The notes below the pieces were generated by a model. It was not told the DNA's origin. It worked only from the letters and a program-made list of their open reading frames with translations, and made no database searches. A stretch of DNA of 64,000 nucleotides from Candidatus Omnitrophota bacterium (lineage in GTDB: Bacteria; Omnitrophota; Gorgyraeia; Duberdicusellales; Duberdicusellaceae), in NCBI GenBank assembly GCA_016932855.1, contig JAFGCB010000023.1:4825-68824 (forward strand), given 5' to 3'. The position numbers and the translations under genes are program-made. This document shows positions 13,343 to 64,000 of this stretch, in pieces (position 1 is the first letter of the stretch; the number at the start of each line of letters is the position of its first letter).

Positions 13343-13708
13343 TTACTCGGCCTTATCCCGGAATAACCTGGACATGCCAAAAAGTTCAGGCTTATTCAGG
13401 TCCACGCCTAATCTCCAGTCTCCGGAAAATTGCCGCTCTACCCAGGCAACTCTTCCTTCCACTGTCAAAGGCTTCTTCTGGTCGGGAAAATGAAGCCATA
13501 TACGTAAAGGCGCTGCCTCGGGTATTCCTTCTTTGCTTACTATACCCAGTCCCTGAGCGCTTATATCGCAGGTTGAAGCCTGGGTAATTCTACCGTCCAT
13601 CAGGTCTAAACACCTTACAGGAAGATTGGCCTTAAACCTCTGAAACCGCCTTCTGTCTTCTTTTTCCTCAAACGCCGCTACTGACGCCATATTTATCACC
13701 TCCTTCAA
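13343..13708 (-). CDS. PilZ-domain protein (candidate c-di-GMP effector)
   Basis: RRRFQRF (RxxxR) and DISAQGLG (D/NxSxxG) motifs with PilZ spacing. GGAGG RBS upstream. Confidence 0.7.
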   Translation of the reverse strand: MKEVINMASVAAFEEKEDRRRFQRFKANLPVRCLDLMDGRITQASTCDISAQGLGIVSKEGIPEAAPLRIWLHFPDQKKPLTVEGRVAWVERQFSGDWRLGVDLNKPELFGMSRLFRDKAE

Positions 13709-14086: not shown

Positions 14087-17000
14087 TTACTTCATCCCCG
14101 GCACCCTCAATTCATCTCCCGGCCGGATTAAAGCAAAAAGATATTCCCGGCCATTCCTGGTCCTCGTCTCTATTTCTATCCCGTTAGCCTCGGCAATATC
14201 TCCGAAAGTAACTCCCTCAAAACTCTGAGCAATATCCCACAGAGTATCGCCTTTATTGACTGAATATTCCCTTGTATCGTACTGCGTACCGGGTACTGCG
14301 TACCGCGTTGAATTTAATACTCCACATTCGTCACCCGGCGCCTCCCTTAAAACTGCCTCAGGGGACAACCGACTAGTGATACCCGGTACACGATCAGACG
14401 CCAACGGCGAAATGAATTCTTGTTCAGTCCCCGGCACCCGGTCCGTTGCATTCTTTACAAAACTGCTTGAATCAATTTTGTAAACTTTGGACAGGGGTGA
14501 GCTGGAAATAACATTTGCCCCGTCAGCCGGACTAAATAACTGCTTAAGTTCCCACGGCAGATCGCCAAGGATATCTTTAATTAAAGATTCATTTATCTTC
14601 AAGAATTCTTCAACTCTCGGCTTTTCTTCATTTCGAAATTTCAAATACGCTTTTGATGGAGGCCAGACTAACTGATATATATTCTCCTCTTCTAGAACAG
14701 CTAAGTAATGCGTTACTCCCAACCCACCCCATCGAGGTGAAAAACATAACTGCTCTAACTGCTTTGCTTTAAGTTGCGGATAGTCATCGCGCAATCGAAA
14801 GACATTTTTTACTTCCAGGAATTCATGTAATAATACATATAGCCAATCCGAAGGTGTAAAATAAAAGTGGTCTCTTAGATTAAAACGCATACCCACAATA
14901 TTAATTATAGTACCTTTGGAAGCATCTACGAATTTAACTTTACAAATGGCTGGACCGGCTGGTGTTTCTGATAATAAATCACTCGAACTTGTGCCTTCTT
15001 CTTCTATTCTCTTTTTCTCTTGACGAATACGCTCCCTGTAATCAAAACCGTTCTCCTTTAACCTATCTAAGGTTAAAATAATCAATTTATTTAGTATTTC
15101 TGCTGTTACTTTAATAATTATTTCTTTATCTTCAACAGCAATTGATTTTCTTGTCTGAATTTTTCTATATGCAGTAAAATAGCTGTCCCATTCTTTTTCA
15201 GAAAATTCTAATTTTTCCCAGAGGCCCAATTCTGTTAATTCCTTACGTACCACCGGCGAGCTCATGGTTCGACTACCGCTCAACACTAGCCCTGAGCTTG
15301 TCGAAGGACTTCCCCCTTTCTTTACAAATCTGCTTGAAACAGATTTGTAAACTTTAAGAGGGGAGCTGACCATATTAGAAATACGTATATAAATATCCAA
15401 AATCTTGGTAGGCACATTTTCTGTAAATCCCTTTTCTGAACTAAACAGAAAATAAGCTTGATGCAGACTGTGATCCCATAAATCTAACAACTCCAAAGTC
15501 TCCTCTTTTGCTTCACTAAAAATAACAAACCCGTATTGACTTTCAACAAGTTGTCCCGCTTTATTTTTATCTAAAAAATATTTTATGTCCGCTAAAGGAT
15601 AACCTAGAATAAACCCTTGTAATATATCGCGGTCAAACCCGGGTTGTTTATGCGAATTCAAGGCAGTAACTATAATATCTATTTTACTCTTTACCTCTTC
15701 AGATTGACGCACTCTAGCGGTAAGAAAGTCGAGTTGCCCCTTAGTAATAAGGTCGTTTTCTACCAAGAAAGAACCCTCGTATTTTAATCTCGAAATAATG
15801 TTAGGCCATAAGATAATCTCGTTATTGGTAAAAACTAACCCTAAATTCTCCTGAGCTTCCGGAATGTTGCTTATCTCGCAAGCTAACTGCACTATATCTA
15901 TATCAGGCTCATAAGTATATTTTATATATGCGGACTTCACGCCTAAAAAAACAGACAAAGCATCCGGATACAATAACTGCTGTTTAGCTTTGTCACTAAG
16001 CTTAGTGAAGGCTCTCTTAACAATTAACGACCTTTCCTGCAAGGCACTATGCGCCGGCGAGCTGATTGGTTTCTTCTCAACCGGATAAATAGAAGCGTCC
16101 CCTTTTTCACCATCTGTCATTATTTGTTCCCGTAAAGCCTGCGGGTTTAGTTTCCACCTCCTCAATTGAGCGTATAAGGACTCTTTAGATATACCCAATA
16201 TCCCGGCTGCCTGTGTAAAATTACCCTTTGCTTTAAAAATAGCCGCAAATAATCTCTGCTTTCGAAGCTCCTCTATCTTTATACCGTAATATCTTAATTT
16301 TCGATATACTTCGTTTTTGTGCCATCCCAATTCAGCAGCTACCCGGGGGATATCACACTCCATTCTGATTACAAGCTCTTTTAATTCATCTGCCTGGCTT
16401 TTTTTAGTCGGCCGGGAATTTTGAGCTTCTTCTTTTATTCCGTATTTATCTAACTTTCTATAAAAAGTCTCAATGGGCATTCCTAATATCCTTGCTGCCT
16501 TCCTAAAGTTATAATTTACATTAATAAGAGCTTTTTCAATCATCTGCCTTTCCCGTTCTTCAAGGGTATCCCATACTACAGGAACTTGCAGTTTTTGATT
16601 ATTATTTATAATTAAAATGTCTGGAATTCCGCCGGACCAGCTGTATATCTGGATCTTAAAGCTAAGTATGGTTTTTGTAACCGCGTACCAGCCTTTTGAA
16701 ATCTCTTTTATTCTACCGCTTGCGATAATTTCTAATGTCCTATCCTTACTCCTTTTATCGGCTATAAGAAAAGGTATGTTTAATAAAGCATGAAGGCACA
16801 GTCCGGAATAACATCTTATAGCTCCGGCCTCAACTGCTGCCCTTATAGCGGTACCCATACGCTGTCCGGAAAGCGCGTTCTCCCGAAAATAACCTCTCAT
16901 CTGCGGAATGGACTTATCCAACATATTCAATACCTCGGAACCCGATAGAACATCTTGGGAAGTTTTTAAAGGAAATTCTCTAAGGACCGCCTTTTTTAAC

Positions 17001-20000
17001 TCATCAGTAAATACATTCCCTTGCAGGTTAAAACATTCGGGATTTTGACTTAAAAACCGTATTTGCTCATCCAAAGTTAATTCCTGCATTGCTTGAGCAA
17101 ATTCTTTCTCCTGAACAATACAGATTTTTCTTTGCTGCCATTCTCCCTTATCAAATAAAAGTCTTTCCTCCTTAGTCTCGTTTAATGTATATATACTTCC
17201 GACTTCGCTTAAATTAGAAAAATATAAATACCCTTTGCTACCCATAATAAATGCTTTACAGCCAAGACTAAGTCTGGTAAAGGCCGCGGGCATAATAATG
17301 TTCTCCCTTACCAGCATAGAAATGATGGATTCCATGCGAAAATCATTACCTCTAAAGACAACTATGGACTCCTGCCTTTTACCCCTTAAGCCTAGGTTCT
17401 TAATCCAGAACATACCTTTATCGATACGGGCGGGCGCGATAACTTCCGAGTCTTTTTCTGCCCATAACAGTTCTGCTGCCTCAATGCAAGATACTCCTCG
17501 GCTACTCCCTTTGAAGCTTCTAACTTTCAATCCGCTATTGTAAGGAAACCGGAAACGCGCGCCGCCGGTTTTCGGACATCCGATGCAAAAATCATTCTTA
17601 ATTAATTGCTTTATCTGCCAAGCCTGAGGAGGAGCGTTTCTTACCAAAATATCGTCAAGAAAGGTTTTTAAATAAATATTTTCTTCAGCGCCTACGCTTT
17701 TTTCCAAACAAGTTTCATATCTTGCAAGAACATAACCCTTATGGTATACAAAGATTTCATCTAGGGTGCGTAAGAAAAATAGGTAATTGGCATTCCTATT
17801 CTTTTTAATTGACCTACCCAAGGTCTTTCTCTCAGCTAAAACAGTAAAAAGATTTCTTCCGAAACCATCATCTTGATCCATCCTTACAACTAAATCCTTA
17901 ATAAGAGTATAATTTCTACTGTGTAAATGAGGTATTAAGAATGTAATGGGCCTAAGCTTAATACTACTTGTTTTTCGAATCCCTTCGATACGGGTATTCC
18001 TGACTCTCTCGGCAATAACCCTAAGTTGATCTTCTCTAGTTCCAAAATGATTTCTTAAAACCCTGTTTACAAAAGTTTTTGCCGGCGGATGAGAAAATAA
18101 CTCGTCACCGCTTAATATGCCGTGTTCTGAAAAAGATACACCGCCTTTTGTAGACTCGCAGAACACAAAATCTCCTTCGGAGTAAACAATCAAAAGAAAA
18201 TTGCCTTCATCTTTTATATCGATCAATGCCTTTACCGCGTATTCTCTTTCTTTATCCGGAGCGTCAAAAGAAATACTTACAGCCCGGCCCCTTAGAGCTT
18301 CTCCGAAATTAAGACTGCCCCCTAACTCAGATCCGAAAACTATACTTCCGCTATCCATTGCATATTTTTTAACATCCTCTGGACTAAGCCCCTTTCTGAT
18401 AAATCCCCTCACAGCGCTTCTGTATACTTGTAATAAACCTGGATCTATTGATACCGGCGAACTTAAACCATCAGACACATGCCTTGCCTCAGAGTTGTTT
18501 TTCCTTACATCACATTCAAAGCGAACAGTAACCAGACCTCTTTGCGATTGAATACCTAGATGGGCGGCTTGATCACCAATTAACTTGTTAAGTTCTGCGA
18601 GGCTCCCATACATTAAGGTTTTGCCACGGCCATATTGCCTGAAAAACTCAGATTTGCCGGTCTTAGCGTATAAAAGCAAGAGCTCCACGGGATCGGGTAT
18701 TTTAGCAGGGTCAAATTCACCCTGATTTTCAATGGTAAACACAAGATGGCCTTGCCGTCCAAGCTTACCTGGTGTAAAAAAGTAGCTCATCACTACATCA
18801 CCTCTGTCGTCTTTTCTGTGTTTTATCGCGTTCTCAATCATTTCACCTAGTATATTTTCTATGGGCCCGGCAACATCATCACCAAACACTCTATTGAGGC
18901 TATTTCTAAATGCTACCTGCCAAAGAGCACTCACTGCAGTCATATCTTTTTTAGGAGCTTCGTTAATCACTATTCTTCTCTTTATTGAAATTTTTCCTTC
19001 TTCCGACTCCCGACCCAAGACTAAAGACTCAAAACCTTCAACTGGAGAATTTAAAGAACGCCTGATTTTTTCCAGTTCTCTGCCCGCCCGGTCGAGATAA
19101 CCACTGTTTCTCAAATCAGACAGTGCTTTCTGGTAATAAATTTCGTTGACTTCAAACGTACCTTCATACTCATCGCATTCATCGTCGTAAGGTTCTATAT
19201 CCCTTTTTCCCCATTTCTCCGTCAATACCACGTATTGAAAAGGCATATCTTCGTTCTTCCGGAACATTCCCCCAAGGATAGCTTCCTCGCCCAAAGACCT
19301 CAAGAAATATATCAACATCGCGGAGTTAGCCAAGCACGTATCCAGCCTAAAACTCCTGATGACAGCTTCGATATGCAAAACATCGATTGTATCAACCGAA
19401 GAACTAGCCGATATTAGACTTCTTGTTTTCGCATTATAACTATTTCCCAGTTCTCTAAAAGCGGCTCCAACCAAAGAGTCTCTGTTTTTACAATAGAAGA
19501 CTCTAGCCGGATCAACGCCTAACCTTTCGGCAACTAGTTTTTGAGTTATCCGCCTTACTTTTTGAGACTTAAAATATTCTATTGCCTGCAGGATTCTACC
19601 GCCGATAAGAAGGCTATATACTGCTTTCTCCACCTCGGTATTAGCTAGGCGGCGTAAGCGAAGGGTCTCATGGCTTACCCCCGCTTTGTTACAAATTGTA
19701 GTTATACTAATCGGTTTTACTGTCGTAAGCCAAAGTATTTCCACTGCCTTAAGGATAAAAAAATCGCTTTTATTGCCGGTAGGCAATGTATCCATCACTT
19801 TACCAACCTCAGGATTGGCACGCCTGCGCCGGCTAACAGTAGATTCAGAAAGCCCGGTTCTTTGAGTAACTAAAGCTTGACCGCCTGGCATGCCTTCAGA
19901 TGCAATATATGCCGCTTCCTTAATAATAAGACGACCGGCTCTGGTAAATTTAATAACCTGGCTATTTACGGAACCCTTGCGATTTGTACCGTCCAGTGGC

Positions 20001-23000
20001 GAGCTCAACCCATCTTCCGACACCCCAAGCTCGATGCCCGTAACTGCCTCTTCTCCAATAGAATCTGAGCTTTGATTATTTCCTGGAAATTTCCTAAAAC
20101 CCCATAAGACCGCTGGTACATATAGAGCCACACCTAACAAAAATCCTTCTATGCTTGCATGCCATGGTAAATAAAATAAGTTATAGGAAATACCAATCGG
20201 CAATAATATCTTCGCCCAATTTCTTACTTTCGTCTTCTCTGCCGAGTTAGGTTTCTTATATGTCATATAAAGTGAATAGACCATAAAAGGAGGGCCTAAG
20301 GCTCCTACAAGAAGGTTTTGGGTAGTAAAACTTAAGGGAAGAGAGAATATTATGCTCAAACCTATACCATAATACGGCCAAGCTGTGATAATTGTTTTAC
20401 GCATGTTAGGAATCTTGTCTTTTAATATAGTTACAACCCCTCTGTTTTTATTTTCCGGTAAGCTTTTCTCAACTAAACTTTGCATAGAAAAAATAAGAAA
20501 AAGAGAGACTACTGCTGTAGTAATCTGATCAGCACCGCCAAGCAAAACGCAAGGCAAAGAACTTTTTAGCCATATATTATAAGTACAAGGCCAAAACCAA
20601 CCAAAGAAAAAGAAGGTTAATCCAATAGTAGCACCTAATCCCTTAAAATTAAACCTCTTTAGATTTAACAGCTGGCCGGAAATATCTGCTATGGCTCTAA
20701 AAGTAAGAAAACTAACAAAGGTCCTCAAATTAACAAACCCTATAAATCCTGGAATATTCACTGAAGCAAATAATTCACCTAATGGTATTTTAGGCACGTA
20801 CTGTAAAAGATAGAATGAAATACCTATAACTGCAGTTGTTATAGCAACTACGGGGATAGTTTTACGTAATCGCGTTAGCTGGTTAGAATTATAGTCAATT
20901 TTTTTAAGGGGCGAGCTGATGATTCTCTCGGTTTGCGGTTTGCGGTTTGCGGTTTGCGTAAAGGATTCATTTCCGGAAATTGGGCTTGAGGCATTTTTGT
21001 TTTTATCCCAAAACTTAGATTTTATTGGTGAAGAAGTTAATCCTTTTATGGATTTGGCAGGGCTTGATAAAGATATGCTTATTGGCGGAGCATTGCCAGA
21101 TAAACCTCTTTTAACAAACCAATTATTTAAAGGAGAGCTGATTATTCTTGTTTTATTTGATAGCTTTTTTCGGCTAAACACATAAGGAACTTCTACTACA
21201 TCACCCTCACTTAGCGTCTCATGGTTTAAATCATCACCATCTCTACCAATGGACGCATCTAAAGAATAACTTCTTAATATAGGAAACTTCTTTTTAATTG
21301 CATAGCTTTCTCTGGCTAAAGACGCCCAAGCACCTCTACGAAGAGCTTTTTCAAGCGGAACAGTAAAATCGTAATCCATTACTGCCTGATAAAATCCGAC
21401 TAATATAAAGGCTCTTCTATCTTCCGGTCTAAAACATCTATACCTATATGCACTCATCCAAACAAGTCTTTCTATAAGGCTTCTATGAATTCTACATAAA
21501 ACATCAAAAGCTCTGTGTTCGTTTTGCTTAATAAGTAAAATTAATTGGTGCGATTGCTTACTTAATATTCTATCAAAATTAAGAAAAGGATTTTCTAAGA
21601 TGGATGTATCTATTTTTCTACTGCGTAGAGAATTATTCAACTTCTCGATTCTAAGTTGCCTTGTCCTAGGAGAAGGAGATTTTTTCTTCAAAGAAACCCA
21701 ATCAGCATTATCTTCGAGATTAACAAACCATATACCTGAAAATTCACGAGTTCCTCCGCCGCCGCCACCAAAGAGAGTAACTTTTTGCCCTGCTAATTTC
21801 TTGTCGTGTAAATCGTAAACAATTGTATTAGGACTATGATTAAACTTACTTGCCACTTCAGATGTAGTTAAGTAACTAGGATTAGTATAGATTTCATACT
21901 GCCTGTGGATTTCTTTTACGATTTTAAGAAAATCATATATATCTATTCCCTTAAATCTAGACTCAGAAGAACTTAAGCTTAGTAACGTATCTTTTAAGAT
22001 ATTTCTTCGCTTGCCGAATTCTTGATTTAGTATTTCAGAAAGTATGTAACGTTTAGGGTTTTTCACCAATTTATAAAAAACTGCCTTATAAATATCGCAA
22101 ACACCATATTCATTTATAGCTTTCTTAGCTTGCGGCAAAGGGATAATCAAAGCCTGTTCTTTATTCAAACTATTCAAGGCATCTACTGATATGTACCATC
22201 TTCTGCCCGACTTCTTTACTCCCAATCTTTTCCTCATCGAACGTTTTCTGTTTAACATATTAGAAAAAACGCTTCTGTTAACTCCCAGCACCAAGGCAGC
22301 TCTAGAAAGAGTAACAAACCCAGAAGCATTATCATCCTTAACAACTTCTGGCTGTAGAGCGCCTATCCACTCTTGATCAATTGATAAATTTCTTATAACA
22401 GCCTCCAAAACATTAATTCTTTGCCCCTTAACCCTAACCCAAAAATTCTTGTTATACCTCTTATCTGGTATACTTCTTAATGGTGAACTAACTATAGATG
22501 CTTCATCGAATAACTCAGCGGCCGTATATCCTGCTTCAAAGATTATTTTTTTTCTAGTAGAGCTAATACGTTTTGCTAATATTTCTTCTGGCTGGGATAA
22601 AGATCCTTCTCCGTCAAGCTCATGAACTAACCATTTATCCATAAGCGCTTTTGTTTTGCTAGAAACTTCATTTTCAAATCTCTTTAGCACTCCTTCAAAA
22701 TAAAAACCATTTAAGTTATCTAGAATTCTAACACGCAAATCTCTATTCAAATCCTTTAGAAAATCTATAAGAGCAAACTCTAACCAAAGAGGCGCTCTCC
22801 TAGCTCTAGTTCTTAGAGTATTAATAACCATAGATACCCAATCAAAGGCAATCCAATCTTTACTACCAATAACCTTATGTATAAGCGCATTAAGCGCGAC
22901 AGTTTCTTTATCTTCTCTAAAATAAATTTTCTCTAATAACGACATAAGCTCTTCTTTCTTTTGCGATTTATTCCAGCTGGGATTAAACAACATAGACATA

Positions 23001-53000: not shown

Positions 53001-56000
53001 AATATACTGTAATTTACCGCCAGAAAAAGGCGCCCTATATTTGTTTTTTTCTTTAAATAGATATAGGAAATCGCGGCACAAGTAAACCCTGTAATCACTA
53101 TCGGATTAAGGTCAGTCCAGTCGTAATGGTGAGGAATAGCAAAAAATCCGGTAAGGTATATAACCGTAGCCCAGAAACCTGCTGCCCAGTAATTAAACCA
53201 CTTCTTAAGCCGTTTAGTGAAAAACCTGGCTGTAAATACGAACAAAGGAATTGCTTTAAGAATAATAATTTCCCAGGTTTTAGCCTTAATACCGGCAACA
53301 GCCTCTTTTAGCCAGAGCAAACGGTCCTGCCTTATCTGGGGAGAATTTTCCTTTATGACCTCGATAGCCTGGTTTGAATTGTCAATATTTTGAATAATAA
53401 CATAAATCAGAAATCCTGCAACAGAAGCGAAGAAGACAAAACTAAAGAGGCGGCCTAAATTCCATTTAGTCTTCATCTTGAAGACCTGTTTTGCATTAGC
53501 CCGGGTTTTCTCATTAAGTAACTTCTTAGTCCCGGCCCTATACTCTAATTTCAACCTGACTTTATTAAAAAGTAGGCCTAAAAATCCTAATCCCAGCAAA
53601 GCCAAGGAAGACAAAACCAATGCCAGGCTGAAATTAAAAGATGGATAAATATTCGATAGGCCTATTGATCCGGCATATTTAGATAAATATAAGGCTATGC
53701 CTGCCAAGCCGATGGTGACAATAGAAATAATCTTGAGTTTACTTATCCCTTTATTAACCTCTTGGTTAGCTCTTTCTCCTTTCTTCTGGTGCCATTTAGC
53801 GTCATCTACCCCGGATCTTGTTTTGCGCAGAAACTCTTCGCTGCCGATCGCGAATCTTGCGTTTGCTTTTCCCCGGCGGAACAACCGCCAACACCAATAT
53901 AATAATAAAACTTCTGCCGGCCAAAGAGCATGTATGAACGCTGCCTTGGTTGCTATAGCCACTGCCAGCAAAACACTGCTGGCAAGAAGGACTATTACGC
54001 TTACTATTTTGATAGTTCCGTAGGCGCCTTCTGCCCAGGCTCTTTCTTTTCGCGAGGCATGCCTGAATCTGGCATTAATGTCATCATCTAAAGGCCATAA
54101 ATCTTTTGTCCTTACTCCGCCCACTGGACCTACCCTGGGAAAGACAAGAAGAAATCTTCTGCCCATGGTACCTTTACGCAGACCGAACTCTCTGCTCACA
54201 TTTTTCGTATGCTCTGACGTACGGCTGTTAAAGGCGAATTTACGCAGCAATAAGGCAAAACATACCCCCATAGTTAAGAGTGTATAGACAATATTACTCT
54301 GGATAAAAGCAACTATCGCAACAGGCAAACCAACATAGAGAACAGTCTGGCCCAAGACCCAGGCAATACCCCAGCTTCTATTGTCCCTAATCTCAATGGG
54401 GAACCGGCCGCCGCTAGTGTAATCACTGCGTTTTTTTGCCATATTTTCGGCATCCACGCTAATCCTTTTATTAAGCTTTCCCACAACCAAAGCAAGTAAG
54501 CTTAAGCCTCCTACTACTGTAGCCAATATCTTTGCTGCCTGAACAGCCCAAGATACCTTAATAGCATCAACCGCCGGCTGAACCTGGCTAATGCCTTCAG
54601 CAATACCTTCAGCCCCTCTAACCAGGGCCTCGGTTGATGTTTGCACCTCAGTGACCATCTTAGGGGATTCCAAACCGAAAATAAAATATAAAGCTGTTAA
54701 TATTCCCAGGCCCAAAATCACTATGCTTAATACCTTAAAGGCACTGGTAAAACCATCTCGTCTGCCGGCTTCTTCTCTGCCTTGAGATAAAGCATTAAGC
54801 GCGCCTACATCTCCTAGCCTCGCAGTCCTGCGCCAGGCTTCCTTAAGCCCAAGCTTCCTGAACAATTTTGCAATGGGGTCTAAAATCCCGAAAGTAACGC
54901 GCTTCTTAACAAAGCCCGCCTGGACCGAAACCGTACGCTTGAATATCCAGTTAATATATATGGAAAGAAGAAGAAATACTGTACCCAGGGCAATAAATCC
55001 GACCGGACTGGTTATAAAAGCTAAGAGTTTCTGCGGAGACTGAACGTGTAAGATTGCTAATCCCGATATAATCCCCAAAGTAAACAAGAAAGGTAAACCC
55101 GCAGGGTGCTTAAAGAACTTATACAGGTTAACAAATATCTTCTTAACGCAAAAATCAGAAAAACTTCCCAGGCCCTGCCTTAAGCTAGGAAGGCTTATCT
55201 GTACTTTGGGTATATTAATTGATGGCCGCGATGTTTTTGGTTTCCGGATTTTTGGAGCAGTATAGACCTGTTCTGTTTTAACTTTTACCACGGGAGTTTT
55301 CTTAATCTTTCTTGCAGAGACAGTTTTTTCTCTTGCCGGCTTATAAACTTTAGACTTCCGAGCTATATCAACTTTGTAATCTGAAGGTAAACTTATTATC
55401 AGCCTAAGACAGGTTTTAATCGATTCGATCTGGGCTGCGTAAGGCTGGCTGACCCCAAGGGTAATTTCTATCTCCAGCCCGGATTCTTCGAAAATCTTAC
55501 TTGTTCCTCTGAGCACGCCTTGGGCTTCCTTAAATACATCGCTTTCGTATATTGCCCAGGCAAGCTCTCCAAGCCTATTGGACAAATTGCGCCTTATTTC
55601 TATGGCATCTTTGCCCGAGGAAACTTTAAATAAAGAACTCTTCAAGGACATGAAACTGTCCCGGAAATCATCATAATCAGAATTATAAGAAAAACTTCCT
55701 TTATAAGACCTTTTACTAAGCTCAAGTAAAGGCATAAGATACCAGATAGCTTCCAACATGCTCTCTATGCGCCATAAGTCGGAAAATTCCGGACCCTGCC
55801 CCAGCTCAATGTTCCTAAAGTCAGCGGCTACTTTTTCGCTGCTAAAACTTATCTTAAAAAGAATGAATTCCGCAAGCTCCCGGTAAGAGCTGAAGACACG
55901 CAGATGAAAACAATCCTTTTCTCCAAACCGGCTGTATGCGCTTTCCTTAACTGTTAAGGATTTTAAAAGCCGCTCGCTCATCTGTCTGTTTAGCGAATCT

Positions 56001-59000
56001 CTGAAACTACGGGTTTTCATCAAATGCCTAAGGCTCAGGCTTTGGCTTGTATCGACTATTACAGCTACCTCAAGCCGGTTAATAGCTTCCTCTTGCCGAA
56101 TAAAAATACCCTCGCCTTTAAGATAGGCGGTCTTTCCGACAAGTAATGCCCTTATAGCCGGAACATCAACTCCTCCTAGCTTATCGTGCCATACGGTATA
56201 AACTCTGCCTGTACGTCCTGCAAGGGCATTATTTATAAATCCGTTAAGTTCTGCCACATTTAGACCGCTCTTATTCTTTAAAGCAGAAAACCTGCTTTTA
56301 TTTTCCGAGATGATCCGGGAAGTTTTCATAGTATCTTTTTTCCGGAATTTTAAAAGGAATTGTTTTGTCGGTGAGCTTAAAGAAAGGCGGGCATTTTCAG
56401 GAGAGGATATCGCGACGCAAGACCTATCCGGCGGGCTGTTTCCTGATATGCCTCTTTTTATAAACCAACTTCGCAATATATCGCTAGTAAAAGAATTTTC
56501 GCTGTTTCTCTGCGCAGGGGAAGACAAGAATCCATCCTCAATCCTGTCAATTACTCTCGGGCCGTAGTCGCTTTTAATATCAGAGCCGCCAGTAATTAAA
56601 TATACCGGGATCTCTAAAGATAAGGCCTTATGAAAAAGTTCTGCCATATCCAAAGGCATGGGCTTATGCAGTAAAGCCACGCAGCCGTCGACATCAGAGA
56701 TAATAGCTCTTATTATTATATCTGACTGTTCATGTCTTCTAAGAGCCTCGTCTAAAACCGGATAAACACCCTTAATCCCCGGATGCTCGGTAATTTTAAT
56801 CGAAGGAATATTTAATACATCAGCAGGGTCGCCGGCATAATAAGGCCGGTAATCAACGCTGTCTGAGGTAATCCGTAAAAAAGGAATATCAACCGGGGAA
56901 TCCCCGAAAGCAAATACCGCTCCTCCGTCAAAATTATCAAACAAAGGCCTTACAATATCCAACTTATCGTTTAAAGTCACCTTGCAATAATCCTTTCCAG
57001 TAAAGACGGCATAATTTTTATTATTTAGAATACTTTGGGCGCCGGTTAAAGAATTTAGTAGGTCGGATTCAAAACCTACAGCGGAAAGAGAGCCGAACCT
57101 ATTTACAAAATCCTGACAAATCCTTATCTCAAGCTCTGATAATTTATTAAAAAATTCAATCTTAAATCCTAAGCCCTTACCGAAGCAAGAAAGAAGTTTC
57201 TCTATATCTTGCAAGTGGGTTACCGGAGAAAAGAATTTATCACGCCAATGAGTTCTTACTAACACGGCCGGATTCTTTAGATATATACCCGCAACAAGGT
57301 TATGCTCCCAGGAATTATAAAGATAGATAAGACTGCTGGCTGAGATGCCAAGTTTACGGCTAGTCAATTTCCAGAAAGCAGCTGAAAGACTCTGGCCGAT
57401 AATCAGCTGATCCTTAAGATTAAACTTCTCTGCCTTAAGCTCCTCTACCTTTCTTTCGCCCTTTGGAGTATAGTAAACCCTGCCTTTTCCTGATATATAG
57501 TAAAAATCAAAGTTCCTAAGATACTGGCGAGAGGCCTTAAGGCTTGAGGAAGAACCAAAAATATTATCTTGCCTCAACAATACTGCTATCTCTTCGGTCT
57601 TTTTAGAATATTTACCGGCTATGGATTCATACCGGCTGGCCTTTGTAAACTCATACATTAATTCGAAAGCCAGCCCTATATGGCTTAATACATATGCAAC
57701 AATAATCCCTAATGCCTGCTCGTCTTTATATATTCTAAACCCATGCTCAACCAGCTGTTCTGCGTTCACATATCTTCCATTATTTTGAATTCCTAAAATA
57801 TTTGCTACTTGATCTTTTTCCTCTCCTGCGTCCAAAAGGTCAAAGCCGCCATTGTTTTCAACGCCCAAAAATACATGCTGCCGCTTTCTATCCTCTGAAT
57901 CCTTTAAGTCTAGGTCTATTGCAGCTAAATTGCCGTAATATCCCATAAAGCTAAGAGAAAGATAGCCGAATAGTGAACGCACGCCGCACAAAGAAAGCCA
58001 GGTAATTATAGCCTGGACTTGTAAAGGCACTTCTTCTATGCTTGATAAACTCTCAGGATCAGGAACTAACTCATTAAGATAACTTGTAATAATAGCGGCG
58101 TCTTCTGCGTCCATCATCGCGCAGGAAGCATTAAACATATCAGCTGTAGTCGACTCGTTTCTAATCCAGTTCTCGACCCTTTCGATTACACCCGGCGTAT
58201 CCTGGGGAAGATGGCTTACTCTTACAAAAGGCTGGATATACTGGGGGATAATATTGTTAAGAAAATTGTTTTTCTTGTAATGGCTTAAAATAGATGCTAG
58301 GTCTGTTTGTTTATTACTTTCCACAATATTAATCTTAGATTCAAAAGGAGATGAGGCGCCCGAAGAACTACCAAAGCTTTCTTTAGCATCTATACGGTGG
58401 TCCATCTTCAACATATACTTGGCAAAGTAGGCAGAAAATATGGGAGCAAGCATCTTGCGGGTAAGGTCTTTTCGTATCCTACTCGGCACGCCCGGCAAGC
58501 GGCCATTCAAACTAGCATCACTTGACCTATGCATTATGTCCCTAACATCCATGTATTCTTTTCTCTTTTCGATAAGCCGCTGTCTGTGAAAAGCGTCGTT
58601 AAAGTAAAATGAACGGTAGTTAAGTATCCCGCTATTAGGATCAACCAGAATACTCCTGTATTCCTGGGGTATATTATCCAAACCACCCAGCCTTCTTATG
58701 ATTTCCCGGCGTGTCTTACGGGCGTTTAGAATAACTTCCTGAGAAAAATGAAACGGCCCTTCCAAGCCTGAATCAGGAACAGGCGGAGGTGCCTGGGAAG
58801 GAAAGAAAAAGCGGAAACCTCTGTCCATTGCTTCCAATTCCTCGGCTGAAAGCACAATCATAAACTGGGCGTATTCGCTTCTGATCCTTTCCCACACTCC
58901 GGCGTATTGATCAATCAGAAAATTAATATCTATATCCCCGTGTTCCTCGGCTATAAGAAGAGCGGCGATTACCGTAGCTTCGGTTATGAAATGGGCCCCT

Positions 59001-62000
59001 GCAGGAAACCCTTCACCGTTGAACATGAGCAGAGAAAAGACATATCTTTTAAGAAGCTTAACCACCTCCAAAATATCGGTATCCTCTGATGACTTTGTCC
59101 TTCCAGCTTTATACCAGGTAGAATCAAAAGGCATATAAATATCTTCCCAGACCGCGCCTAAGTAAATCATTGATGAACGCTCCTCGGTAACCCTTATATA
59201 GGTCTTTATGTGCTCTACCACATCCAGATCATCAGAGCCCCAGCGGGGCTTCATTTTAGATATGCCGTTAATATATCTTAGCCCGGCCTGTATCTGCTTC
59301 TGGGTTAAGGCCCTTCTTCCGAACTCTCCATATAAATACAGGTAAAGAGCCTCGGCTCTTAGGCGCCGCTCCCTGGGAGTCATATCTTTCCATACATTGT
59401 AATCAGAAGGGTTCTCATGCTGGCTGGGCCGATTAAGCTTTTCGTATAGAGCAGCGATTTCTTCTTCTACCTCTTTTATACTCTTTTTTCTTATTAAGGT
59501 AAGTTGACGATCCGAAAACCGAGCTATCCTCTTTAAGATATCCAACATATATCTGTCTGTAACCGCGGTAAATCCTTTGGCAAGATAACAGAATACACCT
59601 CTTGCGCCTGCCTGATGAAGGGCCAGTATCTTAGCCTGCTCTGCCAGCCAATCATCATCAAGATGAGGGTTTATTGCTCCAAAAACATCCCCTTCTTTAA
59701 TCCCTGTCTTTTCAACCCATTCTCCGGGAGTCGTAAGACCTTTTAGATGGTGGCGAAAAGCAACTTTCCTTGCCCGGCCCCAAGTCCCGTATGCCTGAAC
59801 TAAGTAAAGCATGTTACCGAAAGCTATTAAAACCATAGACAAAACAGAAATAGCGCCCCTAACAAACATGGGCTGGCCAAGATTTTCTTTCTTAAGCCAG
59901 TTCTTGCCTTTAAGACCTTTAAATAAATTGTAATAATAGTCTATTAGCCTCAAAGAAGAAATCTCTTTACCTAAATCATCGGAAAGCATGCTAAAAAGCC
60001 GTGTTACTGCCTGGTCATTCCATTGTTTGATAACTGAAAACTCCCAGGGATGAGTAAATAGCCTGAGTTTCTCTGCGGCTGTCTTATCAAGAAAGAAGAA
60101 GCCTTGGCTAAGTTGAAATCCTGACATCGGAAATACTTCATTTAAGCTTGCCTCGATTCCCATTTTCATCGACATATCTTTGGCGTTGCCGGTAGCAATA
60201 ACCATGGTAGTAGCATTTTCCCCTGGCTGGCGATCCCTAAAAAGAACCTCATGCCAACTGGAAGTAATGAAACCGTATCGAGGCTTGCCGTGTTTTGTAA
60301 AGAAATTATCGATTCCTCCAATTTCTTTAGCGTGACCGGCGGCAATATGATAGGTGGCAAGCTTACGGGGATCACTGTTCCTAACTTTTTTATAATCTAT
60401 GGCATCAATAAAAGCATTTTGGGTAAACGGCGTTCGGGTCTCGCAAAAACCCTCATGGCCTTTTCCTGAATAATCAGGCCCGGTTCCGTTTAAAGATACG
60501 CAGAATCCTCCGAACTTCTCGGTAATAATATAGGACATTCGCCAAGCACTCTGTTGCATAGTTACAAAATACTGATATTGAACAGGACTCTCTTTTCTCC
60601 TAAGTCTTCCTTTCAAATATTTGTCAAGCAACAAACCTTTCTTTTCAATATCAGCAAGTAAGGCTTCATAGTCGCGGTCATTCATGGGATTTTCCTGTAT
60701 CTGATGATGCTGGCTCAAAAGCTCATCTTTACTGTCAAGCCTTTTAAGATATCTTCGATATTGTCTTTGGGACATGCGCTTTGCGTTCTTATCGAGTATA
60801 TCTGAGTAATATAGATACTTGTTCTGATCAGATATACCCAAATCATTGAAGAAATTATTTAATATATTGGCAAAAGCATGGTAATCAGTCCTTTTCTGGG
60901 GAAAAATAGCATCAAGAGCAAAAACCGCAATCTTCTCTACCGAAGGCATCATTTCTTTGCGGACATCAACCCCGTGCGCCCGCAATATCATTTTCACCCG
61001 GGGGTCATCCCAGCCTTCGAATATTTCTCTTTTAGATAGGCTGCCGCGTAACCTTTCGGGTGTTCCAACTACAAAATCAACTATTCGGGCATAAGCCATC
61101 CAAGGAGTCTCTCCGGTGCAAGTCTGGGTAGGTATTAAATTAAAATTTTTGCTGTACTCCCAGTGCTGCCAGGCTTTTATAATCTCACAGGCAACCGAAA
61201 TAGCCGTATCCTTTACATTACTGTCGATTATAGGCCGCATATTCAAGGCATTTGAATAAGTACGGCTATAGCGCTCTACCGCTTTATCCCAGCTGCTTTC
61301 TTTAATTTTTATTCCCAGCATGGAGATGAAATCCGCCAAGGCCGGGCCCACGGGAAGAGGCGAACTGCTTGATATTTTAATTCCAGCCAGACTTCCTAAT
61401 GTGCTTGTGTTTCTATCTTCTATAACCCTACCCTCCTGAGTAACCATAAATATTTTAACTTCACTACTTAAGTCAAAGATATTTTCACTGATTCTTACCG
61501 GCTTTAGGTTATCGTCTAACAATGTAACTTTGTGTTTAACCTTAAGCATTCCCCTCGCCAAATCTTTAAGAGTTGAACGGGCCTCTTCCTGAGAAGACGA
61601 AAGAGCTAAAACTAATGCTATCCTGCCCCGCTCAAGTTCGGCAATCCCCAGGTTGTAGCTGTAGTAAAGGCTGTCTTTGTCTATGCCGTTATTCTCGGCC
61701 AATTCCGCTAAGCTAAGATGATCGAGACTGTAAACAAAAGGCTTAGCATTTACTCCGGCAATAAAAGAAAGATTGTTTCTAAATAGCTTATCTTTAAGAT
61801 GATGACCTATAAAGTCACTGTGGGCGATAATCTGCGGTCGCGGCGGAATATACTCTATGTTTTCTTTCCTAAACAAAAAGTTTAGCTTCAACGGACTTGC
61901 CGAGCCGATATCGAAAGAATCTTCATCCTTGAAAGAATAGACCAGAACCCGGGAAAAATCATACGCACCTACAAGATTATCGGCCCGGTCTATCTGTTCC

Positions 62001-64000: not shown

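What the first reader, a model, noticed from the sequence alone, without database searches (positions are those of the whole stretch)
14087..63967. The tripeptide SSP[L/V/I/A/M] recurs about 50 times as a domain-junction marker with strongly biased codons (AGC-TCG-CCN)
Reading the translation, SSPL/SSPV/SSPI/SSPA/SSPM occurs at roughly 50 positions. Examples are ISSPL, GSSPL, LSSPV and FSSPM. About 4 are expected by composition. Most copies sit between recognisable domains. At the DNA level many copies use the same codons, ATC-AGC-TCG-CCC/G. The plus-strand octamer GGCGAGCT therefore occurs at least a dozen times in this gene (for example 15270, 19994, 20911, 25114, 26851, 28446, 28596, 30256, 30611, 30668, 34308, 48971), against an expectation below 1. 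The recurrence at both peptide and nucleotide level suggests one of three things. It could be a processing or recognition site, such as a protease, a proline-directed Ser kinase or a glycosylation sequon. It could mark domain-boundary linkers. It could be the footprint of repeated duplication or gene conversion of a linker cassette.
Basis: seen in the sequence. Interest (0 to 1): 0.8.

Follow-up and report, generated by a model that had tools for sequence, protein, structure and literature searches.

The report
Junction motif in giant bacterial protein
A 16,626-residue bacterial protein made of about 44 unrelated protein-sized modules carries the same four-residue tag (Ser-Ser-Pro-hydrophobic) at nearly every joint between modules, and related giant proteins carry different tags at the same joints, which looks like the cut-site system of a viral polyprotein and makes the open question of whether these giants are cut into pieces testable.

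Summary
In the ORF 14087-63967(-), SSP occurs 62 times against 4.5 expected. SSP followed by L/I/V/A/M occurs 57 times against 1.4 expected. No one-residue variant of the motif is enriched.

The gene is an Omnitrophota-type "multi-enzyme" giant protein. It contains DUF89 phosphatase, RpiA, LspA-like, radical-SAM, HTH and LysM modules and about 20 transmembrane helices. A PilZ gene and sugar-import genes lie downstream.

The motif sits at module ends. It flanks RpiA and DUF89, and it lies in low-pLDDT coil around a confidently folded domain.

The signal acts on the peptide, not the DNA. Both serine codon families are used. Omnitrophota relatives with different GC content show the same enrichment with varied codons, and SSP stays conserved inside diverged linkers.

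Other related giants carry different strict motifs at the equivalent joints: GKSLGE, RSE-hydrophobic-R, PTDM and EQSA. Many relatives carry none.

The AGC-TCG codon bias and the GGCGAGCT excess are real. They cluster along the gene and partly reflect local copying of junctions.

My best reading is lineage-specific endopeptidase sites of a cellular polyprotein. Cleavage is inferred, not shown, and I found no protease. I found no description of these motifs in the papers I could search.

The parts
14087..63967 (-). Giant ORF of 16,626 aa. Omnitrophota-type multi-enzyme giant protein of about 44 protein-sized segments.
63422..63433 (-). SSPM site, aa 179
63128..63139 (-). SSPA site, aa 277. A P-loop NTPase-like segment starts about 30 aa later.
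61355..61366 (-). SSPL site, aa 868
56513..56524 (-). SSPA site, aa 2482
52739..52750 (-). SSPL site, aa 3740. Lies in pLDDT<50 coil after the first TM cluster.
52643..52654 (-). SSPI site, aa 3772. Lies 2 residues before the first helix of module 1.
51905..51916 (-). SSPA site, aa 4018. Lies 6 residues after the last helix of module 1, in pLDDT<50 coil. GKSLG, ASLG or RSETR occupy the same alignment columns in other giants.
51869..51880 (-). SSPV site, aa 4030. Second site of a double junction that is conserved in P0001, P0012 and L008.
49100..49111 (-). SSPV site, aa 4953. Lies about 6 aa after the end of the DUF89/ARMT1 module.
48983..48994 (-). SSPL site, aa 4992 (AGC-TCG)
48602..48613 (-). 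SSPL site, aa 5119
47549..47560 (-). SSPV site, aa 5470
45980..45991 (-). SSPL site, aa 5993
45437..45448 (-). SSPL site, aa 6174. Lies about 15 aa before residue 1 of the RpiA module.
44561..44572 (-). SSPL site, aa 6466. Lies about 22 aa after the end of the RpiA module.
44036..44047 (-). SSPL site, aa 6641
43631..43642 (-). SSPA site, aa 6776
41345..41356 (-). SSPL site, aa 7538. N-side joint of the module shared with P0060, where RSEVR stands at P0060 aa 696.
40574..40585 (-). SSPA site, aa 7795. C-side joint of the same module, where RSEMR stands at P0060 aa 964.
40031..40042 (-). SSPA site, aa 7976
38477..38488 (-). SSPL site, aa 8494
37496..37507 (-). SSPL site, aa 8821 (TCA-AGC)
37010..37021 (-). 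SSPI site, aa 8983
36428..36439 (-). SSPL site, aa 9177
36134..36145 (-). SSPI site, aa 9275 (TCA-AGC)
35249..35260 (-). SSPA site, aa 9570 (TCA-AGC)
34796..34807 (-). SSPA site, aa 9721 (TCA-AGC)
34304..34315 (-). SSPL site, aa 9885 (AGC-TCG; cassette copy)
34214..34225 (-). SSPL site, aa 9915. Second site of the cassette.
33518..33529 (-). SSPI site, aa 10147
32774..32785 (-). SSPM site, aa 10395
32072..32083 (-). SSPM site, aa 10629
31202..31213 (-). SSPM site, aa 10919
30809..30820 (-). SSPL site, aa 11050
30674..30685 (-). SSPL site, aa 11095 (AGC-TCG; cassette copy)
30608..30619 (-). SSPL site, aa 11117 (AGC-TCG)
30245..30256 (-). SSPL site, aa 11238 (AGC-TCG)
29321..29332 (-). SSPV site, aa 11546
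29294..29305 (-). SSPV site, aa 11555. Lies about 10 aa before the first TM helix of the LspA-like module.
28589..28600 (-). SSPV site, aa 11790 (AGC-TCG). Lies after the LspA-like module.
28442..28453 (-). SSPL site, aa 11839 (AGC-TCG)
26915..26926 (-). SSPI site, aa 12348 (TCA-AGC)
26846..26857 (-). SSPL site, aa 12371 (AGC-TCG; cassette copy)
25115..25126 (-). SSPL site, aa 12948 (AGC-TCG; cassette copy)
24686..24697 (-). SSPI site, aa 13091
22478..22489 (-). SSPL site, aa 13827
21128..21139 (-). SSPL site, aa 14277. First of a cluster of five sites within 75 aa.
21056..21067 (-). SSPA site, aa 14301
21023..21034 (-). SSPI site, aa 14312
20978..20989 (-). SSPI site, aa 14327
20906..20917 (-). 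SSPL site, aa 14351 (AGC-TCG). Precedes the third TM cluster.
19994..20005 (-). SSPL site, aa 14655 (AGC-TCG). Follows the third TM cluster.
18452..18463 (-). SSPV site, aa 15169
16052..16063 (-). SSPA site, aa 15969 (AGC-TCG; cassette copy). N-side joint of the second copy of module 1.
15356..15367 (-). SSPL site, aa 16201. C-side joint of the second copy of module 1, in the same alignment columns as SSPA 4018.
15251..15262 (-). SSPV site, aa 16236 (AGC-TCG)
14492..14503 (-). SSPL site, aa 16489 (cassette-like copy)
45185..45196 (-). SSPR, aa 6258. Lies inside the RpiA fold. This is one of 5 SSP copies with a non-hydrophobic next residue. The others are aa 1872 SSPF (58343-58354), 2521 SSPE (56396-56407), 2531 SSPT (56366-56377) and 3765 SSPK (52664-52675). 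Their number matches chance.
51932..52639 (-). Module 1, copy 1 (aa about 3777-4012). A conserved domain of about 230 aa with no Pfam or PDB match. It also exists as stand-alone proteins of 275-317 aa.
15368..16000 (-). Module 1, copy 2 (aa about 15990-16200), 32% identical to copy 1
50366..51850 (-). Module 2 (aa about 4040-4534). Conserved in Omnitrophota giants and in stand-alone proteins of 514-634 aa, some with signal peptides.
49130..50215 (-). DUF89/ARMT1-like damage-control phosphatase module (aa 4585-4946)
44642..45382 (-). Full-length ribose-5-phosphate isomerase A module (aa 6196-6442)
28868..29260 (-). Signal-peptidase-II (LspA)-like membrane module (aa 11570-11700). Weak hit, below the curated cut-off.
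52973..55099 (-). First transmembrane cluster, about 10 hydrophobic helices (aa 2957-3665)
27773..29263 (-). Second transmembrane cluster, about 7 helices (aa 11569-12065)
20096..20860 (-). Third transmembrane cluster, 3 helices (aa 14370-14624)
34208..34393 (-). Best copy of the cassette 'KGDASIYFVDGKPI-SSPL-..YK.DSN.FV..-SSPL' (aa 9859-9920). Other copies lie at 48911-49063, 31256-31333 (SSP degenerated to SSS), 30605-30733, 26774-26926, 25055-25198, 16016-16156 and 14396-14614.
13343..13708 (-). PilZ-domain gene just downstream of the giant gene. Small pilZ genes are reported to follow Omnitrophota giant genes.

Best explanation
SHOWN. The ORF is an Omnitrophota-type multi-enzyme giant protein. 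About 44 unrelated protein-sized segments (median 248 aa) are strung together. They include complete enzymes and membrane modules. [S/A/I/L/V]-S-S-P-[L/V/I/A/M] is a strict, peptide-level signal placed in the short unstructured joints between these segments. A lineage of Omnitrophota giants shares the signal. Other lineages have different, equally strict short motifs in the equivalent joints: [G/A]KSLG[E], RSE-hydrophobic-R, PTDM[A/S/T] and EQSA[G/K].

INFERRED. Each motif is the recognition site of a lineage-specific endopeptidase. The protease cuts the giant translation product at the joints and releases the modules as separate proteins for the cytoplasm, membrane and envelope. On this reading the giant ORF works as a cellular polyprotein, the functional equivalent of a very long operon. 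Tandem sites 4-50 aa apart would add redundancy or release short spacer peptides. The position of the scissile bond within the motif is unknown.

The DNA-level AGC-TCG-CCN and TCA-AGC-CCN bias is secondary. New joints appear to arise largely by local copying of existing ones. Selection on the peptide then maintains them.

The confidence value given for this explanation refers to the full statement, cleavage included.
For: Enrichment and strictness:
- 57 copies against 1.44 expected, with every single-substitution variant at background.
- The motif is absent from neighbouring ordinary genes, both here and in related loci.

Junction position:
- Full-length RpiA (profile 5-221 of 223) lies between SSPL 6174 and SSPL 6466.
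- SSSPV follows the end of the DUF89 module by about 6 aa.
- In the AlphaFold2 model of aa 3740-4060, a folded domain (model residues 38-273, pLDDT about 85-97) is flanked by coil that is mostly below pLDDT 50. This coil holds all five SSP copies of that stretch, 2-6 residues from the first and last helices.
- Stand-alone homologues of two modules begin and end at about these joints.
- The 57 sites form 43 junction clusters and 44 segments with a median of 248 aa.

Peptide level, not DNA level:
- Both Ser codon families occur at both positions.
- In P0001 (GC 0.52) nine SSP copies use nine different codon triplets.

Cross-species evidence:
- SSP is the top tripeptide in P0001, P0005, P0007, P0027, P0030, P0059 and P0064, and the second-ranked one in L009. 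Several of these are named Candidatus Omnitrophota.
- Across 139 sites in these proteins, 88% have V/L/I/A/M at +1.
- 12 of 19 sites inside alignments between such proteins align to SSP in the partner. The flanking columns are only 33% identical and contain indels.

Equivalent motifs in other giants:
- GKSLG or ASLG in P0025, P0039, P0043 and P0047, and RSE.R in P0056 and P0060, occupy the same alignment columns at the ends of the shared module.
- Their codons also vary, with no Shine-Dalgarno or start-codon pattern.
- PTDM and EQSA types also exist.

Plausibility of cleavage:
- The chain combines cytosolic sugar-phosphate enzymes, DNA-binding HTH domains, a membrane peptidase-like module and a peptidoglycan-binding LysM domain.
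- The literature on these giants asks whether they are cleaved and states that the cleavage points are unknown.
Against: - No cleavage product has been observed and no proteomic data could be examined.
- I found no protease module in the giant or in the window. No protease family has been correlated with motif type.
- Many related giants have no detectable motif. These include the closest relative, L006, which has the same module 2 + DUF89 fusion. Cleavage at such sites therefore cannot be a general requirement for these proteins.
- Module 2 and the DUF89 module are joined here without any SSP.
- Junction position was tested for only a minority of sites, because most segments have no recognisable domain.
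- The HSP-interior depletion is only about twofold overall (30 against 61 expected) and is absent for the window protein itself (8 against 5.2).
- A strict motif in an exposed linker would fit a modifying or binding enzyme equally well.
Confidence: 0.45

Rival explanations
1. The motif is a recognition site for a non-proteolytic enzyme or partner. It marks exposed joints for a post-translational modification such as O-glycosylation or phosphorylation of the serine, perhaps to protect the linker. Alternatively it marks them for binding by a chaperone, a secretion factor or a prolyl isomerase. The giant protein stays in one piece.
For: The evidence for strictness, exposure, peptide-level selection and lineage specificity applies equally here. 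All five motif types contain a Ser or Thr. Some related giants carry protein-kinase modules. A conserved parvulin-type prolyl isomerase is reported near giant genes. Motif-less relatives show that the chain can exist without such sites.
Against: Thr never replaces either Ser: TSP+ occurs once and STP+ never, against 0.7 expected for each. This is unusual for kinases and O-glycosyltransferases. The replacement motifs contain no proline, so a prolyl-isomerase reading cannot be general. The placement exactly at the natural N- and C-ends of stand-alone homologues has no obvious rationale for a modification.
Confidence: 0.25
2. The motif is a passive structural element of uncleaved inter-domain linkers, such as a hinge or a helix N-cap (Ser-Ser-Pro followed by the first hydrophobic residue of a helix). 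Each lineage inherited its own version by descent.
For: The motif lies 2-6 residues from the first or last helix of a folded domain. The flanks are mildly enriched in S, K, T and G. Tandem copies such as SSPVSSPM resemble Ser/Pro-rich linkers.
Against: Generic linkers and N-caps tolerate S/T/D/G/A exchange. Here no variant is enriched. The motif occurs on both the C-side and the N-side of domains. Unrelated motifs such as RSEVR and GKSLGE occupy the same joints in relatives, and many relatives manage with no motif at all. SSP is conserved while the rest of the linker changes in both sequence and length.
Confidence: 0.12
3. The motif is a neutral footprint of how the gene grew. New modules were inserted at existing joints by a process that copies a short junction sequence, such as microhomology or target-site-like duplication, or local gene conversion. 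On this reading the motif marks history, not function.
For: AGC-TCG occurs 13 times and TCA-AGC 9 times, against about 1-2 expected for each. Adjacent joints share the same Ser-Ser codon pair more often than in permutations (9 against 4.8, p = 0.03). The AGC-TCG copies concentrate in the C-terminal 40% of the gene (p = 0.002), while background Ser codon use is flat. A cassette of about 50 aa that carries the motif is repeated 7-8 times.
Against: More than half of the copies use other codons, including both Ser codon families at both positions. Switching between those families requires two substitutions. Flanks are unrelated in most copies. The peptide is conserved across species with free codon choice and diverged flanks. 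No decayed variants are seen, although neutral decay would produce them.
Confidence: 0.1
4. The signal acts at the nucleotide or RNA level. It would be an RNase processing site, an internal ribosome-binding or start signal, or a pause site made of rare codons. It would divide the transcript or pace its translation.
For: TCG is the rarest Ser codon in the gene (9%) but is used at 20 of the 62 second serines. The literature leaves open whether the transcripts are cleaved.
Against: No nucleotide consensus exists across copies or species. The RSE motif is encoded CGY-TCN-GAR rather than the Shine-Dalgarno-like AGGAG. The hydrophobic position is not mainly ATG, GTG or TTG, either here or in relatives. 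There are no in-frame stops, so internal starts would still read through to the end of the gene.
Confidence: 0.03

Closest known systems
Omnitrophota giant proteins: the 'multi-enzyme metabolic cluster' class (Nielsen & Lui 2026, bioRxiv 10.64898/2026.06.07.730766) and the giant genes of West-Roberts et al. 2023 (bioRxiv 10.1101/2023.11.21.568195)
   Same: A single ORF above 10 kaa with many distinct enzyme domains. These include signal-peptidase-II-like, radical SAM, HATPase and sugar-metabolism domains. There are many TM helices, a PilZ gene directly downstream and carbohydrate import genes nearby. Most of the sequence is unique. Homologous modules occur in Candidatus Omnitrophota MAGs.
   Different: Neither paper mentions SSP, a junction motif or cleavage sites. 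West-Roberts et al. state that information about cleavage points is absent. This protein lacks the C39 and S8 peptidase, SecA-DEAD and dockerin domains that those papers emphasise.
Viral polyproteins (picornavirus 3C, flavivirus NS3, potyvirus NIa, retroviral protease sites). From general knowledge.
   Same: Unrelated functional proteins are translated as one chain. Short, strict, lineage-specific motifs lie in exposed joints. Different lineages use different motifs at equivalent joints. Spacer peptides sometimes lie between paired sites.
   Different: Here the chain is a cellular bacterial protein about 5-10 times longer, with about 43 joints. No protease has been identified and cleavage is not shown. 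Many relatives lack any motif.
Processed bacterial surface polyproteins: Porphyromonas gingipain/HagA precursors, and Mycoplasma hyopneumoniae adhesins cleaved at S/T-X-F|X-D/E. From general knowledge, not tested here.
   Same: Large bacterial precursors are cut at a short recurring motif into several functional pieces.
   Different: Those precursors hold a few related adhesin or protease domains. They do not hold dozens of unrelated metabolic, regulatory and membrane modules. The motifs are unrelated.
Uncleaved multi-enzyme fusions with linkers (AROM, CAD, fatty-acid and polyketide synthases) and Ser/Pro/Thr-rich glycosylated linkers of cellulases. From general knowledge.
   Same: Several enzymes lie on one chain, joined by short unstructured Ser/Pro-containing linkers.
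   Different: Those linkers are compositionally biased but carry no strict four-residue motif. The fused enzymes belong to one pathway. Here the motif tolerates no substitution and the modules are functionally unrelated.

Membership tests
Omnitrophota giant multi-enzyme proteins | A single ORF above 10,000 aa without stops | tested here: met
   16,626 aa
Omnitrophota giant multi-enzyme proteins | Many distinct enzyme or regulatory domains tiling the chain, with none dominating by copy number | tested here: met
   DUF89/ARMT1, RpiA, GlcN6P-deaminase-like, radical SAM (weak), LspA-like (weak), HATPase (weak), HTH_8 and LysM are present. Self-BLAST finds almost no internal repeats.
Omnitrophota giant multi-enzyme proteins | Multiple transmembrane helices | tested here: met
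   25 hydrophobic segments, most of them in three clusters. This comes from a Kyte-Doolittle scan, not a dedicated predictor.
Omnitrophota giant multi-enzyme proteins | Genomic context: small pilZ gene downstream and carbohydrate import genes nearby | tested here: met
   PilZ at 13343-13708 (E = 1.7e-12). ABC sugar transporter, GPH symporter, GH2-like genes and a ROK regulator lie downstream (description).
Omnitrophota giant multi-enzyme proteins | The organism belongs to phylum Omnitrophota | tested here: inconclusive
   No marker gene lies in the window. The homologous modules closest in name are in Candidatus Omnitrophota MAGs and a complete chromosome. Three related loci are labelled 'uncultured Planctomycetales'. 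A neighbouring gene is found only on a Logan contig of SRR13394437.
Protease-processed polyprotein | A recurrent short motif located at the joints between independently functional units | tested here: met
Protease-processed polyprotein | Sites are exposed or unstructured | tested here: met
   Tested for one region only. Four of its five SSP copies lie in pLDDT<50 coil. The fifth lies 2 residues before the first helix.
Protease-processed polyprotein | The site sequence is under selection and lineage-specific, co-evolving with its reader | tested here: met
   SSP is conserved within diverged linkers. Alternative motifs occupy the same joints in other lineages.
Protease-processed polyprotein | A cognate protease is encoded in the polyprotein or the genome | tested here: not met
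   Pfam and NCBIfam scans of the whole giant find no protease domain. A Pfam rescan of four stretches within aa 1-7794 at E <= 1 also finds none. The only hit is a weak LspA-like match whose known specificity does not fit. The rest of the genome is not available.
Protease-processed polyprotein | Cleavage products observed | not testable with these tools
   No proteomic data are accessible. Kizina et al. 2022 is not held in the library.
Generic Ser/Pro-rich flexible linker | Compositional bias with free exchange of S, T, G, A and P and variable repeats | tested here: not met
   Only exact SSP followed by a hydrophobic residue is enriched. All one-residue variants are at background.
Proline-directed Ser/Thr kinase site or O-glycosylation sequon | Ser and Thr are both accepted at the modified position | tested here: not met
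   TSP+ occurs once against 0.68 expected. STP+ occurs zero times against 0.68 expected.
Nucleotide-level element (recombination site, RNA processing site, internal RBS/start) | Conserved nucleotide sequence at the copies, within and between species | tested here: not met
   Within the window two codon flavours are over-represented, but more than half of the copies differ. There is no conservation in P0001. The alternative motifs also vary in their codons.

The most novel reading that the evidence does not exclude
Omnitrophota giant ORFs of the multi-enzyme class are true cellular polyproteins. Dozens of unrelated enzymes, regulators and membrane proteins are translated as one chain of about 2 MDa. 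Lineage-specific proteases then cut the chain at strict junction motifs (SSP-hydrophobic here; GKSLGE, RSE-hydrophobic-R, PTDM and EQSA elsewhere). This would be a mode of bacterial gene expression that replaces operon structure with post-translational processing. The motifs would give the first map of the cut sites.
Probability: 0.4. Interest if true: 0.92.

Novelty: new variant of a known kind. Interest (0 to 1): 0.78.

Why it matters
Giant Omnitrophota genes reach up to 147,000 codons and are a recognised puzzle. The papers that describe them ask whether the products act as one molecule or are cut up. They say the question is blocked because no cleavage points are known.

A strict, conserved, lineage-specific motif at the module joints supplies concrete candidate sites. 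It yields several directly testable predictions:
- It predicts the boundaries of about 44 products in this protein.
- It gives exact termini to look for in existing metaproteomes.
- It gives a trait (motif type) to correlate with protease families across the several hundred available genomes.
- It gives a principled way to split these proteins for structure prediction and annotation.

If cleavage is confirmed, this would be a polyprotein strategy in cellular life on a scale known only from viruses. If it is refuted, the motifs still mark a new lineage-specific linear signal that some enzyme or partner must read.

Tried and rejected
- Compositional artefact. Rejected by shuffles, a Markov estimate and the variant counts.
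- Repeated domain as the source of the motif. Self-BLAST finds only 16 weak internal matches. One cassette of about 50 aa explains 6-7 copies. Its resemblance to the interior of module 1 is weak (E = 0.01) and I did not rely on it.
- Hydrophobic +1 residue as a relic start codon of fused genes. Rejected, because its codons are mostly CTT, CTG, GCN, ATA and GTT rather than ATG, GTG or TTG.
- Shine-Dalgarno plus start reading of the RSE-V-R motif. Rejected, because it is encoded CGY-TCN-GAR.
- Search for a protease in the giant. Pfam and NCBIfam over the whole protein, and Pfam at E <= 1 on four stretches within aa 1-7794, find nothing except a weak LspA-like hit.
- Homologue search with aa 8001-13000. 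No hit in 5.8 billion proteins.
A 5000-aa query timed out.
A narrower alignment worked.
- A mixed alignment of whole short homologues misaligned module 1, and I did not use it.
- Foldseek of module 1 against the PDB. No match with E <= 0.001.
- PDB sequence search of aa 10001-15000. No hit.
- Kizina et al. 2022 (proteomics of the V. archaeovorus giant protein) is not held in the library.
- The test of motif sites against HSP interiors gave only a twofold depletion, and none for the window protein. I treat it as weak support only.

Full report
**1. The observation**

The window holds one enormous ORF, 14087..63967 on the minus strand. It is 16,626 codons long, has about 41% GC and contains no in-frame stop.

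- SSP occurs 62 times. Amino-acid composition predicts 4.47 and a first-order Markov estimate predicts 14.8. The maximum in 1000 shuffles was 13.
- SSP is by far the most over-represented tripeptide (z = 27; the next unrelated tripeptides have z about 6).
- 57 copies are followed by L, A, I, V or M, against 1.44 expected.
- The five copies followed by another residue match chance (3.0 expected). One of them, SSPR 6258, lies inside the RpiA fold.
- No single-substitution variant is enriched. TSP+, ASP+, STP+, SAP+ and SSx+ are all at background.
- The logo is [S/I/L/A/F]-S-S-P-[L/A/I/V/M]-[K/S/G]-[K/S], with almost no information further out.
- The seven ordinary neighbouring genes contain no SSP.

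At the DNA level, GGCGAGCT occurs 14 times on the + strand, all within the gene. On both strands it occurs 16 times against 1.8 expected. Thirteen of the 14 are in-frame AGC-TCG-CC.

**2. What the gene is**

Pfam, NCBIfam and PDB sequence searches find an odd mixture of modules:
- a DUF89/ARMT1 damage-control phosphatase (aa 4585-4946, E = 2e-51);
- a full-length ribose-5-phosphate isomerase A (aa 6196-6442, covering profile positions 5-221 of 223);
- a glucosamine-6-phosphate-deaminase-like stretch;
- weak radical-SAM, HATPase and signal-peptidase-II hits;
- two Fis-type HTH domains and a C-terminal LysM domain.

A hydropathy scan finds 25 hydrophobic segments, most of them in three clusters. 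Self-comparison shows that the protein is essentially non-repetitive.

Directly downstream lie a GIY-YIG gene, a PilZ gene, an ABC sugar importer, a GPH symporter, GH2-like genes and a ROK regulator.

A 5000-aa piece of the protein has no homologue in 5.8 billion proteins. Another piece hits a 3108-aa fragment from a Candidatus Omnitrophota MAG that mixes kinase, adenylate-kinase and glycosyltransferase domains.

This matches the published description of Omnitrophota giant genes. They have many TM helices, a pilZ gene downstream and carbohydrate import genes nearby. It specifically matches the 'multi-enzyme metabolic cluster' class.

I infer the phylum from these resemblances. No marker gene lies in the window, and the neighbouring gene is known only from a short Logan contig.

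**3. The motif marks module joints**

- RpiA lies between SSPL 6174, about 15 aa before its first residue, and SSPL 6466, about 22 aa after its last.
- SSSPV 4952-4956 follows the DUF89 module by about 6 aa.
- An LspA-like membrane module begins about 10 aa after SSPV 11555.
- In the Omnitrophota fragment P0001, SSPV stands 7 residues before the first strand and P-loop of the adenylate-kinase module.
- A HMMER search of 1.84 billion representatives with aa 3740-4560 returned 89 proteins. Many are fragments of giants 2-8 kaa long. A few are stand-alone proteins of 275-317 aa (module 1) or 514-634 aa (module 2), and their ends coincide with the joints.
- An AlphaFold2 model of aa 3740-4060, built on 14 homologues, gives a confident domain at model residues 38-273 (pLDDT about 85-97, pTM 0.75). 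The coil on both sides is mostly below pLDDT 50. All five SSP copies of this stretch lie in that coil, 2-6 residues from the first and last helices.
- Merging sites closer than 50 aa gives 43 joints and 44 segments, with a median of 248 aa and a mean of 367 aa. These are ordinary protein sizes.
- A cruder global test is only weakly supportive. Across 22 motif-bearing proteins, 30 sites fall inside alignment interiors against 61 expected, but there is no depletion for the window protein itself.

**4. The signal is read at the peptide level and is conserved**

- Both Ser codon families (AGY and TCN) occur at both serine positions.
- P0001 has 52% GC. SSP is again its top tripeptide (9 copies against 0.5 expected), and the nine copies use nine different codon triplets.
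- SSP is the top tripeptide in P0005, P0007, P0027 (30 against 1.7), P0030 (21 against 1.25), P0059 and P0064.
- In a 6774-aa open frame of a complete Candidatus Omnitrophota chromosome (OY759724.1), it occurs 15 times against 1.1 expected, and all 15 copies are followed by a hydrophobic residue.
- Across 139 such sites, 88% have V/L/I/A/M at +1 and small residues at -1.
- Where two SSP-type proteins align across a joint, 12 of 19 sites align SSP to SSP. The 24 flanking columns are only 33% identical and contain indels. One example is PSPIT-SSPV-EQGQ against ATEAF-SSPV-TDER.
- The double joint before module 2 is conserved between the window protein (SSPA...SSSPVSTL) and P0001, P0012 and L008 (SSSPVNTL) at 33% overall identity.

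**5. Other lineages use other motifs at the same joints**

SSP enrichment among the 89 relatives is bimodal. Many giants of 3-7 kaa have none. Some of those carry another strict short motif at protein-sized spacing with unrelated flanks:
- [G/A][K/A/S]SLG[E] in P0025, P0039, P0043 and P0047. P0047 and P0025 are adjacent ORFs on one contig.
- RSE[V/L/I/M/T]R in P0056 and P0060.
- PTDM[A/S/T] in P0042.
- EQSA[G/K] in P0081.

In the alignment of module 1, several motifs fall in the same columns just after the domain. These are SSPA and SSPL (the two window copies), GKSLG (P0025, P0047), ASLG and SSLG (P0039, P0043) and RSETR (P0056). The stand-alone homologues end there.

A second shared module is bracketed by SSPL 7538 and SSPA 7795 in the window protein. 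In P0060 the same module is bracketed by RSEVR 696 and RSEMR 964.

The DNA of these motifs also varies. RSE is encoded CGY-TCN-GAR, and the Ser of SLG uses both AGY and TCG. This excludes a Shine-Dalgarno, start-codon or RNA-motif reading.

Ordinary genes next to these giants lack the motifs.

Many relatives show no motif that my k-mer scans can detect. One of them is L006, the closest relative of the window protein. It is 41% identical over 927 aa and has the same module 2 + DUF89 fusion. In L006 the joint after DUF89 is a plain linker leading into a kinase module.

**6. The DNA-level bias**

- AGC-TCG (13 copies) and TCA-AGC (9 copies) are each about five- to tenfold over-represented.
- Six AGC-TCG copies belong to a cassette of about 50 aa, KGDASIYFVDGKPI-SSPL-..YK.DSN.FV. 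The cassette recurs 7-8 times, and in one copy the motif has decayed to SSS.
- The remaining copies have unrelated flanks.
- Codon flavours cluster along the gene. Adjacent joints share the same Ser-Ser codon pair 9 times against 4.8 in permutations (p = 0.03). The AGC-TCG copies sit in the C-terminal 40% (p = 0.002). Background Ser codon use is flat.
- I read this as new joints arising by local copying of old ones, with the peptide then held by selection. This is an inference.

**7. Mechanism**

The data show a strict, exposed, conserved and lineage-specific peptide signal at the natural ends of units that can exist as separate proteins.

The simplest reader for such a signal is a dedicated endopeptidase, as in viral polyproteins. 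The mixture of cytosolic, DNA-binding, membrane and cell-wall-binding modules on one chain makes separation functionally attractive (an inference).

The weak points of the cleavage reading are these:
- No cleavage has been observed.
- I found no protease in the giant or the window.
- Motif-less relatives exist.
- The same evidence fits a modifying or binding enzyme.

I put about 0.9 on 'selected junction signal read at the peptide level' and about 0.45 on 'protease site'.

The rivals are:
- a non-proteolytic recognition site (0.25);
- a passive linker or N-cap (0.12), disfavoured by the motif's strictness and by the unrelated replacement motifs;
- a neutral footprint of module insertion (0.10), disfavoured by codon diversity, cross-species conservation and the absence of decayed variants;
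- an RNA- or DNA-level signal (0.03).

**8. Comparison with what is known, and novelty**

The giant-protein class is already described. Neither of those papers mentions SSP, a junction motif or cleavage sites, nor does Seymour et al. 2023. A full-text search for bacterial giant-protein polyprotein motifs returned only viral and engineered systems. [quoted passage not shown]

The junction motifs therefore appear to be undescribed, within the limits of the library I could search. They work like viral polyprotein sites, but membership of that kind is not established, because neither the protease nor the cleavage products have been shown. I rate this as a new variant of a known kind, with high interest. 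It turns an open question into specific testable predictions.

Noticed in passing
window 51932-52639 and 15368-16000 (aa about 3777-4012 and 15990-16200): A conserved domain of about 230 aa ('module 1'; motifs L.PD.LPVFLG.KPAY and GF..GYP.EDI.Y) occurs twice in the giant. It also occurs in many other giants and as stand-alone proteins of 275-317 aa. It has no Pfam, NCBIfam or PDB sequence hit. Its confident AlphaFold model has no Foldseek match in the PDB (best E = 2.5).
   Followed up: partly
window 13343-13708 (-) and 13782-14060 (-): A PilZ-domain gene (E = 1.7e-12) and a GIY-YIG nuclease-domain gene (E = 7e-16) lie directly downstream of the giant gene. A small pilZ gene after the giant gene is a reported hallmark of Omnitrophota giant loci. 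The GIY-YIG gene may be a mobile-element remnant.
   Followed up: partly
L004 10001-18223 and 18223-27453 (JGI 3300009008 contig Ga0115649_1001107): In a GKSLG-type relative the chain is split into two adjacent ORFs (P0047 of 2740 aa and P0025 of 3076 aa), with overlapping stop and start (TAATG). The second ORF begins with a signal-peptide-like or TM segment. Loci L003, L004 and L005 share an upstream RlmN / 23S-rRNA-IVP gene pair before the giant gene.
   Followed up: no
window 14396-14614, 16016-16156, 25055-25198, 26774-26926, 30605-30733, 31256-31333, 34208-34393, 48911-49063: A repeated cassette of about 50 aa, KGDASIYFVDGKPI-SSPL-x2-YKxDSNxFV, is often followed by a second SSPL 22-30 aa later. 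Two copies are 93% identical over 30 aa (aa 11083-11112 and 12936-12965). One copy has SSS in place of SSP. Its own function, whether spacer peptide or small domain, is unknown.
   Followed up: partly
window 8361-8450 (C-terminal end of the GPH symporter ORF 8361-9980, minus strand): The sugar symporter homologue ends in a highly charged repetitive tail: RREERRKEERRTIERRGEERRGEERRGEEKS.
   Followed up: no
giant aa 4040-4946 (window 49130-51850) and L006 aa 1384-2261: Module 2 and the DUF89 phosphatase are fused without any SSP between them, both here and in the motif-less relative L006 (41% identity over 927 aa). In P0001 and P0005, module 2 is followed by an SSP site and a different module. 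The unit between joints is therefore not always a single domain.
   Followed up: partly
stand-alone module 2 homologues P0008, P0034 (and P0009, P0010): Free-standing homologues of module 2 carry N-terminal signal peptides. This suggests the module works outside the cytoplasm, although in the giant it is fused to a normally cytosolic DUF89 phosphatase.
   Followed up: no
loci L006, L007, L008, L010 (record titles): Four of the five genome loci with this giant-protein module are labelled 'uncultured Planctomycetales bacterium'. The fifth, and the protein database hits, are labelled Candidatus Omnitrophota. Either the labels are coarse or such giants also occur in the wider PVC group.
   Followed up: no
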